45,223 nt of DNA. Source: a virus. Positions 6,001 through 12,000 of the stretch are shown one piece after another; positions within the stretch are counted from its first letter, which is position 1, and each line of letters begins with the position of its first letter. The position numbers are program-made. The stretch is taken from UHGV virus genome UHGV-0196721; one strand, given 5' to 3'.

Positions 6001-9000
6001 CCGCTCCGGTGGGCCTTTTTACTGCAGAAAACAGGTTCCCCGTTAAATGCTATGTTGCTCACAATTCAGTAAGTTGACAGTTGCCTGTCAGACTGGGCAT
6101 TTGTTAAAAAAATTTCGCATGGTGAATCCCCCTGAGCGGAGGGGCGACTGGTGACGGTATAATCTCTGATTATCAAAACGAGAATGACGCGGGTTTAGTG
6201 GCACCGGGCTGAACTCACCGGGAGGCACCCGGCACCATGTGCATGATGATACAGATACGCGGCTTTAGCCCCTCTCCGGAGGGGCTTTCTTATGGACAAA
6301 AAAAGCCCGCGCTGGGAGACGCGGGCGGCAAGGAATAAACAATAAAACGTGAAGTAATATTTCAGCTGGCGAATAATACCCCATAGTAATCACTCTGCGC
6401 AACTGCGCGGTCTTTTTCGAATTGCGGGCTGTAGTCTCCCTTCTGCCATTGTCCTGTAACTTCCGGACTTCAGCCTGCTCCTTATCTGACTCACAACATT
6501 ATCCCGCCCGGGAGGATTCATGGCATTTAAACACTATGACGTGGTCAGGGCGGCATCGCCGTCAGACCTTGCGAAACGACTGACACAAAAACTGAAGGAG
6601 GGCTGGCAGCCGTTTGGTAGTCCGGTGGCCATAACCCCTTATACCCTGATGCAGGCGATTGCAGCAGAAGGTGATGTGGTCGTCAGTGGTGCAACTGAGC
6701 CGGAGTGGTACTACGTCATCGTACTGGCCGGGCAATCCAATGCCATGGCTTACGGTGAAGGGCTTCCGCTTCCGGATTCATACGATGCGCCCCATCCGCG
6801 CATTAAGCAACTGGCCCGTCGTAACACAGTGACTCCCGGTGGTGAAGTATGCGTATTTAACGACATCATTCCTGCTGACCATTGTCTGCATGATGTTCAG
6901 GATATGAGTACGATTAACCATCCCCGGGCTGACCTGAGCAAAGGGCAGTACGGCTGTGTCGGACAGGGCTTACATATTGCCAAAAAACTGCTTCCGTATA
7001 TCCCTAATAATGCGGGGATCCTGCTGGTACCATGCTGTCGTGGTGGTTCGGCATTCACCCAGGGCACGGAGGGGACATTCAGCGAGTCCACGGGAGCCAG
7101 TCAGGATTCGGCTCGCTGGGGAGTGGGTAAGCCGTTATATCAGGATCTGCTTTTCCGCACGAAGGCAGCATTGCAGAAAAACCCGAAAAACGTTTTGCTG
7201 GCGATATGCTGGATGCAGGGGGAATTCGATATGACGAATGCCAGTTACGCCCAGCAGCCAGCAGCATTTCTTGCAATGGTACAGCAGTTCCGTGCTGACC
7301 TTGCCGGGCTGGCGGCGCAGTGTCACGGTGGAAGTCCGGCATCAGTCCCCTGGATTTGTGGCGACACGACATACGCGTGGAAACAAGAACACGGTACGCA
7401 ATATGAAGTGGTATATGGTGCATATAAAGGTAAAGAATCCCAGCAGATTTATTTTGTTCCCTTTATGACCGATGGTAGCGGAGTTAATACACCGACAAAC
7501 AACCCGTCAGAAGATCCTGATATTGCCGGGTCTGGTTATTACGGTTCGGCATCCCGAACGAACAAAAACTGGGTATCATCAAATCGCCCGACGCATTTCA
7601 GCTCATGGGCGCGTCGTGGCATTATTCCCGATCGTATGGCAACGGCTATTCTGAACGTAGCCGGTCGCACCTTAGCCTTCATTAGTGGTAAGGCACCGGA
7701 AATCAAAGCCTCGCCCGGCGGCGACACGCCATCGGGGCCGTCTGAAGATGCATCCATACGCACAATCTCCCTGTTGCCGACAGCCGGAGACGCTGCTGCG
7801 CAGGGCTGGAGCATTAAGAATGGCGGAATTCAGTTGTCAGATGGTGTATTTAAGATCACCAAGCAGAGCAATAAAGCCTGGTCCCTGACGCGCCCGGTGG
7901 ATGACGCAGTCTCCCTGCTGACACGGGGTGGCAGACTGAGCTGTAAGTTTCGACTGTCAGGCGCACTGACCAACAACCAGTTCGGTCTGGGAATTTATCT
8001 GTATACCGATGTAGCGTTACCTGACGTCGTGGCGATGACCGGGACTGGTAACCCGTTCCTGATGTCGTTCTTCACCCAGACCACAGACGGCAAACTGAAT
8101 CTGATGCATCACAAGAAAGCAGGAAACACAAAGTTGGGCGAGTTCGGGAATTACAGTAACGACTGGCAGACGCTGGAGCTGGTGTTCACCGCCGGCAGTG
8201 CCACGGTTACTCCGAAACTGAATGGAGTGGCTGGCCCGGCATTCCAGGTCATAAAAGACAGTCTGACACTGGGGCTGAATGCGCTGACGCTGACGGATAT
8301 TACCAAAAATGCAGCGTATGGCGTTGAGATAGAAAGTCTGGTGCTGGAGATAAATGCACCGGCATCATCATAAAAAGTGAGCCAGCCAAATGGAAGGTAT
8401 CGTTAAACTCACCGGTAGTGTCAGTGGGTCGTCTGAGATGCCTGCATGAGTTATCAGAGCCATCAGTACTTAACTGGTGGCTTTTTTTATTGTTGTCAGC
8501 TTCCGGATAACGGGAGACGGGGTATGTACCAGATGGAAAAAATCACAACAGGTGTGTCATACACCACGTCAGCGGTGGGAACGGGCTACTGGTTCCTGCA
8601 GTTGCTGGACAGGGTTTCCCCGTCTCAGTGGGCGGCAATAGGCGTGCTGGGGAGTCTGCTGTTTGGGCTGCTGACATATCTGACTAACCTGTATTTCAAA
8701 ATCAGAGAGGACCGTCGTAAGGCTGCACGGGGAGAGTAATTCAATGACTCAAAACTATGAACTGATTGTGAAAGGGATCCGCAATTTTGAGAATAAAGTT
8801 ACGGTAACTTTAGCGTTACGGGACAAAAAACGCTTTGACGGTGAAATTTTTGACCTGGACATCTCGCTGGACCGTGTTGAAGGTGCCGCGCTGGAGTTTT
8901 ATGAGGCAGCAGCCAGAAGGAGCATCAGACAGGTCTTCCTGGATGTTGCTGCCGGGTTATGTGAAGGGGATGAGCAGTCGCCGGAAAAGCGCCCCGTAAT

Positions 9001-12000
9001 TTTAGAGGCGCAGGATGTGTTGATAACCTACAGAGGAAAACTACCGGGAATAATTACGGGTTCTCTGAAGAGTCCGCCGAAATGGTAATTTTACCAGCAT
9101 ATTTTTCATCCAGTAATACAGCAAGCCGCCTGAAAGAGTCTTGTTGTTCCTGAGACCATTTGGGATTGCATGATTCAAACTGGATTGATGCCAGCGTTGA
9201 TTGCATCTGTTCCCTTGGAATTGAGAATGCCAGATATGAGAAGGCGACGGTAAGGGTATTCACGTCTTCCCGAAGCCTGGAAATGCTGTCGAGCAACTCC
9301 TGTAGAGAAATGGTGTTATTGTCCATAAATAATCCTCATGATTGTATTGACCTGTTAGCAGCCTGAGGCAACAGGCTGGAACTGATAAACATATCCAGGG
9401 CTCAGAAACCGATAAATCCTGATAAATATCCATGAACGCAAAAATCAGATACGGCCTGTCGGCTGCCGTTCTGGCGCTGATTGCCGCTGGTGCGCCTGCG
9501 CCTGACATTCTCGACCAGTTTCTGGATGAAAAGGAAGGTAACCACACCACGGCATACCGTGATGGTGCGGGTATCTGGACCATCTGCCGCGGTGCCATCC
9601 TGGTGGATGGCAAACCTGTCGTTCCGGGCATGAAGTTGTCGAAGGAAAAATGCGACCGGGTTAACGCCATTGAGCGTGATAAGGCGCTGGCATGGGTGGA
9701 GAAAAACATCAGAGTGCCATTGAGTGAACCCCAGAAAGCGGGGATCGCGTCATTCTGTCCGTACAACATTGGTCCCGGTAAGTGTTTCCCGTCGACGTTT
9801 TATAAACGAATTAATGCAGGTGATCGCAGGGGAGCGTGTGAGGCGATTCGCTGGTGGATTAAGGACGGTGGCAGAGACTGCCGTATTCGTTCAAACAACT
9901 GCTACGGTCAGGTATCCCGTCGTGACCAGGAGAGCGCGCTGGCGTGCTGGGGAATCGACAGATAAGCAGAATATTTTGCTGAAAAATAAGGTATGGCCAC
10001 GCGGGCGGATAACACGAAATCCTGCGAACTGGCGAAACGTAAGTGAATAAAAGTAAAAACCCCGTTTGTTGGCACCAAGCGGGGTTTTGTGTTTCCTGAC
10101 TCCGGAAAAGTCAAAGGAGAAAGTGTGTTTGATTTTAGCAAACTGATTCGGGAGATTCGAGTGATGGCTGAAAAATTATCCACCTGGAAGTTCATTCTTA
10201 TCTGGCTGGTGTTTGTGATTATGGCCTCCGGTTATTTCATCGGTCAGATACGCTGGTGGTGAAATGAACCGCGTACTGTGCGTGGTCATCATTGCCCTGC
10301 TGGTGGCCTGTGGTGCGCTTAGTCTGGGGCTGAATCATTACCGTGATAACGCCATTACCTACAAAGCCCAGCGCGACAAAAATGTCAGAGAACTGAAGCT
10401 GGCGAACGCGGCAATTACTGACATGCAGATGCGTCAGCGTGATGTTGCTGCGCTCGATGCAAAATACACGAAGGAGTTAGCTGATGCGAAAGCTGAAAAT
10501 GAAACTCTTCGCGCTGACGTTGCCGCTGGTCGTAAGCGCCTGCGTATCAACGCCACCTGTCCAGGTCCCGTGCGTGAAGCCACCGGCACCGCCCGCGTGG
10601 ATAATGCAACCGGCCCCCAACTGGCAGACACCGTTACACGGGATTATTTCACCCTCAGAGAGCGGCTGATGACGATGCAGAAGCAACTGGAAGGGGCGCA
10701 GGAATATATCCGTACTCAGTGCCTGAAATAAGTTTTGTTGATGCGCCGTATCGTCGCTGTATTCCCTCATTAACAGAGACCGCAGCCCGACAGGGAGACT
10801 CCTCTGCGCGAGTGTGCGGGGATAATCAAAAACGATACACACCGGGGTTTACCGCGTTAACGGAGCGCGGCGTTGTCCCCTCATAGTCGCCTGTCCGGTG
10901 CGATGGTGGAAGAAACCGGATGTTTATCACTATTAATTGATGACACAGAAATGGATTCATTGAATTTCAGCACGTTTTTGTATTCGTGTTATTGAACATC
11001 TGTTTATTTTACTTTTAACATATTGATAATAAAAAGAGCTGTAAATCTTTAGATGAGTCGATTTTGTCCGGGGAAGTTCAAGTGGATTTTATGCTGACGG
11101 TTTCTGGTGTGGTTATCCTGTCCATTGCTTATACTGCAGATAAATATGGCTGCCATTTGTTATCACGTATTGGCGCTTATTGTTCGTTGATGCTGATTTT
11201 CTCGTCGCTTTTTTTTGAGTAAGTTATATTAATTATAACAAATAATTTTCTGTGTTATTTTTTCAGGCTATCCCGTCAGAGGGGAAGCCTGTACTGCCGG
11301 GGAGCGAATGGAAAACTGATGTGTCCGGTAACTGCGTGTTCTGTGAACACCATGTTACTTAATTATGTAATTCATACCCGAACTCTCTGTTGACAGCCTT
11401 CTTCTGCAGGCTTCAATAACCCACGCTGAAAAGTTTCCTGAACCTTTCAGATCAAGAGCGATGTTAATTTGTTCAATCATCTGGTTTGGAAATCGGATGT
11501 TGCGGGTTGTTGTTCTGCGGGTTCTGTTCTTTGATGACATAATGTTTCCCCATATTCAGTGTTGCTGATTTGTATTATCTGAAGTTGCTTTTACGTTAAT
11601 TTGATGCAGATCAATTAATACGATACCTGCGTCATAATTGATTGTTCGCTGCATAGCGGTCCGACCCCGTACTGCTCACGCAGCTTATCCAGCAGTGGCA
11701 TCATTTTTTCCAGAGGCGGTCGAACTCCGCCTTCGCAAAATAAGCGGAAGCCTGGCGAAGGATATCGTTACTGCGGCGCAGTTCACGATTTTCACGTTCC
11801 AGCTCTTTCAGACGCTGACGTTCAGCGGTGGTGAGCCCTCCATCACCGCCCCCGGTATCCCGCTCATGCTGGCGAACCCAGACACGCAGAGTCTCCGGCG
11901 TACAGCCAATCTTTGGAGCAATGGAACAAATTGTCGCCCATTGTGAGTCATATTCGCTCTGACTTTCCAGAACCATACGGACTGCCCGTTGACGGACTTC

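What the first reader, a model, noticed from the sequence alone, without database searches (positions are those of the whole stretch)
8744..9326. Convergent overlapping gene pair inserted between pinholin and SAR endolysin
Pinholin and endolysin are normally adjacent. Here about 690 bp separates them and carries a 114 aa ORF on the + strand, coupled to the pinholin stop, and a 90 aa ORF on the minus strand with a good RBS whose 3' end overlaps the first by 35 bp. Neither has a recognisable motif and the segment is lower in GC. An antisense gene inside a lysis operon could be a moron such as a lysis-timing regulator, toxin-antitoxin-like pair or anti-defence or exclusion cargo.
Basis: seen in the sequence. 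Interest (0 to 1): 0.65.

Follow-up and report, generated by a model that had tools for sequence, protein, structure and literature searches.

The report
YdfR plus antisense moron gene
Between the holin and endolysin of this E. coli prophage lie the known late gene ydfR and a real, conserved but uncharacterised small gene on the opposite strand, carried in about a fifth of complete E. coli genomes; it is an ordinary kind of prophage cargo whose function is unknown.

Summary
In detail: a 114-aa + strand ORF (8744-9088) follows the S21-type holin stop, and a 90-aa minus-strand ORF (9054-9326) overlaps it by 35 bp. GC is 0.465 against 0.52 for the window.

The + ORF is not motif-less. It is YdfR (Pfam DUF1327, E 7e-43), a usual resident between this holin and lysozyme. 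K-12 YdfR was recently reported to bind the catalytic half of RNase E.

The minus ORF is a genuine gene (phrog_2411, 'Ybl58'). It is the only frame open in nine lineages, with dN/dS of 0.12-0.49. It lies in a ~320-bp indel cassette that close relatives lack, and occurs in 1221 of 5426 complete E. coli genomes. It is predicted to be a soluble, acidic three-helix bundle with no informative fold match.

It also survives without YdfR: beside a decayed ydfR, in IS-rich islands, and as a syntenic chromosomal gene (dinI-X-bssS) in Serratia and Sodalis. An obligate toxin-antitoxin-like pair is therefore unlikely.

One point is unexplained. In four further phage contexts its convergent partner ends in the same I-T-G-S-L-x-x-P tail.

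Most likely it is an autonomous moron of unknown target. Interest is moderate to low.

The parts
8524..8739 (+). S21-type class II holin (pinholin), 71 aa, with the dual-start motif M1...M4
   Evidence: PF04971 at E 2e-32; phrog_20 and phrog_9876 holin; PGAP 'class II holin family protein'.
8744..9088 (+). ydfR-family gene (DUF1327), 114 aa, in the late operon, starting 4 nt after the holin stop
   Evidence: PF07041 at E 7e-43 and 145 bits; phrog_406 full length; PGAP 'YdfR family protein'. The AF2 model (pLDDT 68) gives three strands and a long helix over residues 5-76, then a low-confidence tail.
8966..9088 (+). C-terminal tail module of YdfR (about aa 75-114), ending ...GIITGSLKSPPKW. It is absent from K-12 Qin YdfR but present in the convergent partners of Ybl58 homologues in other genera
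   Evidence: Alignments. The I[TIF]G[SE]LxxP motif is conserved with synonymous codon changes.
9054..9326 (-). Ybl58-family gene (phrog_2411), 90 aa, predicted to be an acidic cytoplasmic three-helix bundle
   Evidence: phrog_2411 at E 1e-58; PGAP CDS WP_000369850.1. It is the only frame open in 9 lineages, with pN/pS 0.35 against 1.0-1.6 in four of the other five frames; the fifth (0.39) shares wobble positions and is closed by 10 stops. AF2 pLDDT 77, helices 8-34, 38-52 and 59-77. pI 4.5 and no membrane segment.
9054..9088 (.). 35-bp 3'-3' overlap of the two genes. On the minus strand it encodes most of the disordered tail of Ybl58 (the last 11 residues plus the stop)
   Evidence: pLDDT is below 50 for residues 79-90. 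Distant homologues end earlier or overlap by only 7-14 bp.
9085..9403 (.). Indel cassette that carries the antisense gene and its leader. Phage vB_EcoS-640R1 has about 45 unrelated bases here instead
   Evidence: Pairwise alignment; GC 0.442. The cassette alone is found in 1221 of 5426 complete E. coli genomes and 3 phage records.
9327..9416 (-). Leader of the antisense gene. It holds the SD GAGGA (9337-9333), an inverted repeat (9359-9378), and two weak promoter-like candidates: TTTATC-17-TATGTT at 9416-9388 and TTGCCT-19-TACAAT at 9371-9341
   Evidence: Read directly from the sequence and conserved across contexts. No site passed the consensus scan, and the leader fold is not significant (z -0.19). 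The promoter is inferred, not shown.
9432..9965 (+). R21-type lysozyme with an N-terminal SAR-like hydrophobic segment, 177 aa
   Evidence: PF00959 at E 1e-23; phrog_7 endolysin; PGAP 'lysozyme'.

Best explanation
The segment holds two separate accessory genes, not one inserted unit. (1) ydfR is a normal late-operon gene of S21-type lysis cassettes. It is read with S and R from the Q-dependent late transcript. Its N-terminal domain (three strands plus a helix) belongs to the DUF1327 family, whose K-12 member was reported to bind the catalytic half of RNase E and to co-purify with RNA. (2) The minus-strand gene is an autonomous 'moron' carried on a ~320-bp cassette that recombined into the end of ydfR. 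It encodes a 10-kDa acidic, soluble three-helix protein (Ybl58 family). I infer that it is transcribed from its own weak promoter against the late operon, so it would be made in the lysogen, when late transcription is off, and overridden by convergent late transcription after induction. I also infer that it acts on a conserved host component rather than on the lysis proteins, because single-copy chromosomal homologues exist in Serratia and Sodalis with no phage genes nearby. The 35-bp overlap is a by-product of the junction: the reading frame runs into conserved ydfR sequence until it meets a stop, and that stretch is a disordered tail. Shown here: gene reality, indel nature, independence of the two genes, soluble helical fold, and family distribution. 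Inferred: the promoter, expression in the lysogen, and the host target.
For: YdfR occurs without the antisense gene in K-12 Qin and phage 640R1. The report that K-12 YdfR residues 1-72 bind Rne 1-597 and pull down RNA is PMC13232886. The antisense gene is real: dN/dS is 0.12-0.49 over 9 lineages, it is the only frame without stops, and its SD is conserved. The cassette is an indel with lower GC. The antisense gene is intact where ydfR has decayed to a 23-codon remnant. It is also intact next to iha in an IS-rich island and next to an autotransporter gene on a plasmid, with no partner in either. Chromosomal homologues lie in a fixed pyrC-dinI-X-bssS-solA position in Serratia and relatives, without a convergent partner. 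The protein is soluble and acidic with no membrane segment, and AF2 predicts a three-helix bundle with a disordered overlap tail. The same slot holds unrelated antisense families phrog_1853 and phrog_2572 in other phages, so it is a cargo hot spot.
Against: No promoter or terminator for the antisense gene passed the consensus scan, so expression in the lysogen is unproven. No fold or sequence match gives a function. In all four further phage contexts examined outside the E. coli S-R slot, the convergent partner carries the same I-T-G-S-L-x-x-P C-terminus under protein-level conservation. Pure independence does not predict this. Several database variants of the gene are frameshifted, so it decays in some prophages.
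Confidence: 0.6

Rival explanations
1. The two genes are a functional convergent pair. On this reading, the late-strand protein's I-T-G-S-L-x-x-P tail module and the antisense three-helix protein form an old mobile two-gene cassette whose products interact or are expressed reciprocally (one in lysogeny, one in lytic growth). In E. coli the tail module would have become fused to the DUF1327 domain.
For: Homologues of the antisense gene converge on, and overlap by 7-47 bp, a partner ending in the motif in four further insertion contexts: upstream of a different holin in Citrobacter, after tail gene I in Yersinia, between tail genes M and L in two viral contigs, and in two short contigs. The partners' N-termini differ (DUF1327, coiled coil) while the motif is kept with synonymous codon variation. 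K-12 YdfR lacks both the tail and the antisense gene.
Against: Many E. coli YdfR proteins have the tail with no antisense gene, or with unrelated antisense genes. The antisense gene is intact beside a decayed partner and alone in islands, on a plasmid, and in Serratia and Sodalis chromosomes. Physical linkage of a co-mobilised cassette could explain the co-occurrence without any functional coupling.
Confidence: 0.2
2. The antisense gene is defence, anti-defence or superinfection-exclusion cargo expressed from the prophage.
For: Small acidic helical proteins in prophage cargo slots often have such roles (general knowledge). The gene is moron-like in placement and composition and common across E. 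coli.
Against: There is no PADLOC match and no fold match to known inhibitors. Stable single-copy chromosomal orthologues in a housekeeping neighbourhood in Serratia fit a physiological role better than an arms-race role.
Confidence: 0.1
3. The antisense gene or its transcript regulates lysis, either as an antiholin-like protein or as an antisense RNA against ydfR and S that damps leaky late expression.
For: It lies inside the lysis cassette. A minus-strand transcript would run antisense into ydfR and S, because no terminator follows the gene.
Against: The protein has no membrane segment. Selection acts at the protein level. Homologues sit among tail genes, in islands and in non-phage chromosomes. 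Closely related phages do without it.
Confidence: 0.06
4. The minus-strand ORF is a chance ORF or a dead gene, or the two ORFs form a toxin-antitoxin module.
For: Frameshifted variants exist in databases, and no function is assigned anywhere.
Against: The ORF is open in nine lineages down to 57% identity, with saturated synonymous change and dN/dS below 0.5. The genes are convergent rather than forming an operon, there are no toxin or antitoxin family hits, and each gene occurs alone.
Confidence: 0.04

Closest known systems
YdfR of the E. coli K-12 Qin prophage (Pfam DUF1327, PF07041)
   Same: It has the same family N-terminal domain (68% identity overall) and the same position between an S21-type holin (essQ) and the R-type lysozyme (rrrQ).
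   Different: The K-12 protein has an unrelated C-terminal tail and no antisense gene downstream. RNase E binding was reported for the K-12 protein only (PMC13232886) and was not tested for this one.
Lambdoid phage morons, for example lambda bor downstream of the lysis genes on the opposite strand (from general knowledge of the moron concept of Hendrix and colleagues)
   Same: It is an extra small gene present in some phages and absent from close relatives. It has lower GC and sits in or next to the late operon in the opposite orientation. bor itself sits antisense after Rz in related phages.
   Different: Bor is an outer-membrane lipoprotein with a known serum-resistance phenotype. This protein is cytoplasmic, has no known function, has no demonstrated promoter or terminator, and overlaps the neighbouring gene.
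phrog_2411 / UniProt 'Ybl58' uncharacterised protein family
   Same: It is a full-length member (E 1e-58). The exact sequence is seen on at least 1000 contigs (the tool's counting limit).
   Different: Nothing is recorded about the family. The Serratia and Sodalis chromosomal branch and the recurrent convergent partner are observations made here.
Other antisense ORFs in the same ydfR-R slot: Stx2-converting phage 86 gp06 (phrog_1853) and PhiR5_1 86-aa ORF (phrog_2572)
   Same: They have the same position and orientation, are small proteins, and are also of unknown function.
   Different: There is no detectable homology to this protein (hhalign probability below 1%). In those phages YdfR carries long C-terminal extensions.

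Membership tests
YdfR / DUF1327 (PF07041) | Match to the Pfam model above the gathering score | tested here: met
   145.2 bits against a cut-off of 25, E 7e-43, covering residues 1-111.
YdfR / DUF1327 (PF07041) | Located between an S21-type holin and an R-type lysozyme, as in K-12 Qin | tested here: met
YdfR / DUF1327 (PF07041) | Binds the N-terminal catalytic half of RNase E (reported for K-12 YdfR) | not testable with these tools
   Known only from PMC13232886. The N-domain is conserved, but binding was not tested here.
phrog_2411 / Ybl58 family | Full-length profile match and a conserved AFSYLAFS core | tested here: met
   E 1e-58 over residues 1-90 of 90; alignments.
Phage moron | Present or absent as a discrete insert between otherwise collinear relatives | tested here: met
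   A ~320-bp indel relative to phage 640R1. The cassette is in 1221 of 5426 genomes, while 4408 have some part of the 8400-10000 stretch (holin to lysozyme).
Phage moron | Base composition differs from the flanks | tested here: met
   GC 0.442 against 0.53-0.55 in the flanking genes.
Phage moron | Own promoter and terminator | tested here: inconclusive
   No site passed the consensus scan. Only weak conserved candidates were seen by eye. No terminator follows the gene.
Phage moron | Expressed from the repressed prophage | not testable with these tools
   This needs strand-specific RNA-seq or proteomics of a lysogen.
Type II toxin-antitoxin pair | Two co-oriented, co-transcribed genes | tested here: not met
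   The genes are convergent, with overlapping 3' ends.
Type II toxin-antitoxin pair | Obligate co-occurrence, and a match to toxin or antitoxin families | tested here: not met
   Each gene occurs alone. There are no Pfam or PADLOC toxin hits.
Antiholin or membrane lysis regulator | Membrane-spanning segment, or relation to the holin | tested here: not met
   The highest 19-residue hydropathy is 0.75 and the pI is 4.5. There is no holin-family match.
Known anti-phage defence systems (PADLOC-DB 2.0) | Match to any component model | tested here: not met
   No hits at E up to 1 for either protein.

The most novel reading that the evidence does not exclude
The late-strand I-T-G-S-L-x-x-P tail module and the antisense Ybl58 protein may form a previously undescribed mobile two-gene convergent cassette of lambdoid late operons. 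Its products would interact or be expressed in alternation (lysogen versus lytic), and in E. coli the cassette would be wired to an RNase E-binding domain. That would give the prophage a switchable handle on host RNA decay.
Probability: 0.15. Interest if true: 0.65.

Novelty: new member of a known kind. Interest (0 to 1): 0.35.

Why it matters
About one in five complete E. coli genomes, including BL21(DE3), ST131 strains and an Stx2k phage, carry this small gene inside a lysis cassette, and no source consulted here records a function for it. It belongs to a tiny family: 20 hits among 1.8 billion representative proteins. The family also has a fixed chromosomal copy in Serratia and Sodalis. If it is expressed in lysogens, it is a candidate prophage-to-host effector. 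Its neighbour YdfR is a candidate RNase E ligand. The practical consequence is modest. It corrects the idea that something odd was inserted between holin and endolysin, and it gives a cheap test system, because BL21(DE3) carries the module naturally.

Tried and rejected
- **Function by sequence.** Pfam, NCBIfam and PADLOC gave nothing for the 90-aa protein. The NCBIfam 'Mip' hit (E 0.037 over 15 residues) was dismissed as noise.
- **Homology with the other antisense ORFs in the slot.** None was found with phage 86 gp06 or the PhiR5_1 ORF.
- **SOS control.** There is no LexA box near the gene in the window. The box in Serratia belongs to dinI.
- **Known RNA.** Rfam gave nothing over 8300-10400 apart from a chance rimP-leader hit, and the leader fold is not significant.
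- **Literature.** No paper in the held library mentions Ybl58, the protein accessions or phrog_2411. The two Stx-phage papers checked gave nothing relevant: the text searches of the lysis-cassette survey returned no passage on genes between S and R, and the Stx2e paper held none of the four search terms.
- **Searches that failed.** Context searches for distant members P0072, P0074, P0077 and P0065 in viral contigs found nothing. Several alignment-based locus searches failed for lack of a conserved stretch.
- **A wrong assumption.** I assumed the window was strain CE10. It is not identical outside roughly the first 11.6 kb, so I did not use CE10 annotation beyond the lysis region.
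Full report
**Observation.**
- A 71-aa S21-type holin (8524-8739; PF04971, E 2e-32) is followed 4 nt later by a 114-aa + strand ORF (8744-9088).
- A 90-aa minus-strand ORF (9054-9326) has a GAGGA Shine-Dalgarno sequence 6 nt upstream of its ATG.
- The two 3' ends overlap by 35 bp.
- The R21-type lysozyme, with a SAR-like N-terminus, starts at 9432, which is 692 bp after the holin stop.
- GC is 0.465 for the finding and 0.442 for the core cassette, against 0.520 for the window and 0.53-0.55 for the flanking lysis genes.
- The 8400-10000 stretch is 100% identical to at least 12 complete E. 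coli genomes listed. In the one whose annotation was fetched, PGAP annotates four genes: class II holin, YdfR family protein, hypothetical protein (minus strand) and lysozyme.

The window is a lambdoid prophage late region: Q, tRNAs, a NanS-like esterase, lysis genes, then terminase. It is not strain CE10 itself beyond about 11.6 kb.

**The + strand gene.** It is not motif-less. It is a full-length member of Pfam DUF1327/YdfR (145 bits against a cut-off of 25) and of phrog_406.

ydfR is the usual gene between the S21-type holin and the lysozyme. K-12 Qin has essQ-ydfR-rrrQ, and phage vB_EcoS-640R1 has S-ydfR-R with no antisense gene. The family is almost confined to Escherichia and Shigella. 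Its N-terminal domain is conserved and its C-termini are very variable, at 104 to about 200 aa.

A 2026 paper reports several things about K-12 YdfR (PMC13232886):
- Residues 1-72 bind the N-terminal catalytic half of RNase E in two-hybrid and co-purification assays.
- The protein pulls down RNA.
- Its overproduction gave no growth defect.

That is a lead for this homologue, not a test of it.

**The minus-strand gene is real.** It matches phrog_2411 over its full length (E 1e-58) and is called 'Ybl58' in UniProt. The exact protein is recorded on at least 1000 contigs, the tool's counting limit. I extracted nine diverged copies, down to 57% protein identity.
- The annotated frame has no stop in any of them.
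- Pairwise dN/dS is 0.12-0.49, with synonymous sites near saturation in distant pairs.
- In four of the other five frames pN/pS is 1.0-1.6.
- The exception is the complementary frame that shares wobble positions (pN/pS 0.39). It is closed by 10 stops.
- The Shine-Dalgarno sequence is kept in most of the nine copies.
- Some database variants are frameshifted, so the gene decays in some prophages.

**What was inserted.** Alignment with phage 640R1 shows that only window 9085-9403, about 320 bp, is an indel. The left junction falls in the last codons of ydfR, and the right junction lies 29 bp before the lysozyme ATG.

This cassette occurs in 1221 of 5426 complete E. coli genomes and in three phage records. 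Carriers include:
- BL21(DE3), in its Rac prophage
- ST131 strains
- the Stx2k phage phiSTEC1575

In other phages the same slot holds unrelated antisense small ORFs (phrog_1853 in Stx2 phage 86, phrog_2572 in PhiR5_1), next to YdfR proteins with long C-terminal extensions. The junction after ydfR is therefore a hot spot for antisense cargo.

**Are the two genes a unit?** The evidence against an obligate pair is as follows.
- YdfR commonly occurs alone.
- The antisense gene is intact where ydfR has decayed to a 23-codon remnant.
- It is intact next to iha in an IS-rich island and next to an autotransporter gene on a plasmid, with no partner in either.
- A distant branch of the family is a single-copy chromosomal gene in a fixed pyrC-dinI-X-bssS-solA position. 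That synteny was seen in metagenome contigs whose copy is 76-95% identical to proteins named from Serratia, Gibbsiella and Chania and 65-71% to ones from Sodalis, Acerihabitans and Biostraticola, again with no convergent partner.

One observation points to a link. In every other phage context I could recover, the homologue converges on, and slightly overlaps, a late-strand ORF that ends in the same I-[T/I/F]-G-[S/E]-L-x-x-P motif as this YdfR.

| Context | Partner |
|---|---|
| Citrobacter, upstream of a different holin-endolysin-spanin set | 238 aa |
| Yersinia, after tail gene I | 71 aa, coiled coil |
| Two viral contigs, between tail genes M and L | 85 aa |
| Two short contigs | 77 and 61 aa |

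The motif's codons vary synonymously, so it is conserved at the protein level. K-12 YdfR lacks both the motif and the antisense gene. I cannot tell whether this reflects function or only co-mobilisation of a cassette that includes the 3' end of the forward gene.

**Mechanism.** The best reading (confidence about 0.6) has two parts.
- ydfR is a late-operon accessory gene, possibly an RNase E or RNA ligand.
- The minus-strand gene is an autonomous moron encoding a cytoplasmic helical protein. It would be transcribed against the late operon and so made in the lysogen, and it would act on a conserved host component. The overlap would be an incidental run-on into ydfR.

Expression and target are inferences. 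No promoter or terminator passed the consensus scan. There are only weak conserved candidates: TTTATC-17-TATGTT at 9416-9388 and TTGCCT-19-TACAAT at 9371-9341. The leader has no significant fold or Rfam match.

Rival readings, with my confidence in each:
- a functional convergent pair (0.2)
- defence, anti-defence or exclusion cargo (0.1)
- a lysis regulator acting through protein or antisense RNA (0.06)
- a chance ORF or a toxin-antitoxin module (0.04)

**Comparison and novelty.** Both genes are already in public annotation and in PHROGs as proteins of unknown function. The arrangement itself is present in over a thousand genomes. It is a new member of a known kind, namely prophage moron or accessory genes in and around the lysis cassette, comparable in placement to bor.

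I found no record, in the literature and databases I could search, of the following:
- the family's chromosomal branch in Serratia and Sodalis
- the recurrent tail-motif partner
- the three-family antisense hot spot after ydfR

Interest is moderate to low at 0.35. It would rise if the pair model, or a link to RNase E, were confirmed.

Noticed in passing
L110:2580-3712, and L104-L134 generally: A distant branch of the Ybl58 family is a single-copy chromosomal gene in a fixed position: rne ... pyrC - dinI (with a LexA box) - X - bssS - solA. Close protein relatives are named from Serratia, Gibbsiella and Chania, more distant ones from Sodalis, Acerihabitans and Biostraticola. It has no phage genes nearby and no convergent partner.
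   Followed up: partly
L098:3239-3955, L096:3185-3400, L100:1529-1786, L005:488-721, L006:391-576: The convergent partners of Ybl58 homologues in Citrobacter, Yersinia and uncultured phages all end in I-[T/I/F]-G-[S/E]-L-x-x-P, like this YdfR, but have different N-termini and sit at different places in the late operon (before a holin, after tail gene I, between tail genes M and L).
   Followed up: partly
L013:2946-3218 and L014:2967-3236: Intact Ybl58 homologues (57-63% identity) lie next to the virulence gene iha in an IS-rich chromosomal island, and next to a large autotransporter gene on a 105-kb plasmid. The iha copy still carries a remnant of the lysozyme leader, so it is a captured piece of a lysis cassette.
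   Followed up: partly
L003:2661-2975 and L004:2371-2631: Stx2-converting phage 86 and phage PhiR5_1 carry different, unrelated antisense small ORFs (phrog_1853, phrog_2572) in the same slot after ydfR. In those phages YdfR has long C-terminal extensions (268 and 211 aa).
   Followed up: partly
window:9966-10263: A 298-bp spacer separates the lysozyme from Rz, although the two overlap in related phages. It holds a strong terminator-like hairpin (10056-10088) and a 57-aa ORF with a hydrophobic segment (10089-10262). Its first 86 bases match the region downstream of R in phages that carry ant there. PGAP calls the Rz of the near-identical CE10 copy frameshifted.
   Followed up: partly
window:8456-8484: A terminator-like hairpin with a T run lies between the NanS-like esterase gene and the holin start. 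Q-modified late transcription would have to read through it.
   Followed up: no
L015:2436-4454: In phage phiSTEC1575-Stx2k, the S21 holin, ydfR and the antisense gene are followed not by the R21-type lysozyme but by a second lysis set (two holin-like genes and an M15 peptidase).
   Followed up: no
L012:3439-5338: BL21(DE3) carries the same holin-ydfR-antisense-lysozyme-Rz block inside its Rac prophage, next to sieB and trkG. This makes a common laboratory strain a natural test system.
   Followed up: no
L044 (IMG/VR contig): One viral contig has holin - ydfR - lysozyme - ydfR tail fragment (aa 78-114) - antisense gene - lysozyme. This looks like a recombinant of two cassettes.
   Followed up: no
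P0037, P0049, P0051, P0059, P0060, P0061: Several database versions of the 90-aa protein are frameshifted into the alternative 45-aa frame (window 9041-9178, minus strand). This shows decay, or sequencing errors, in some prophage copies.
   Followed up: no
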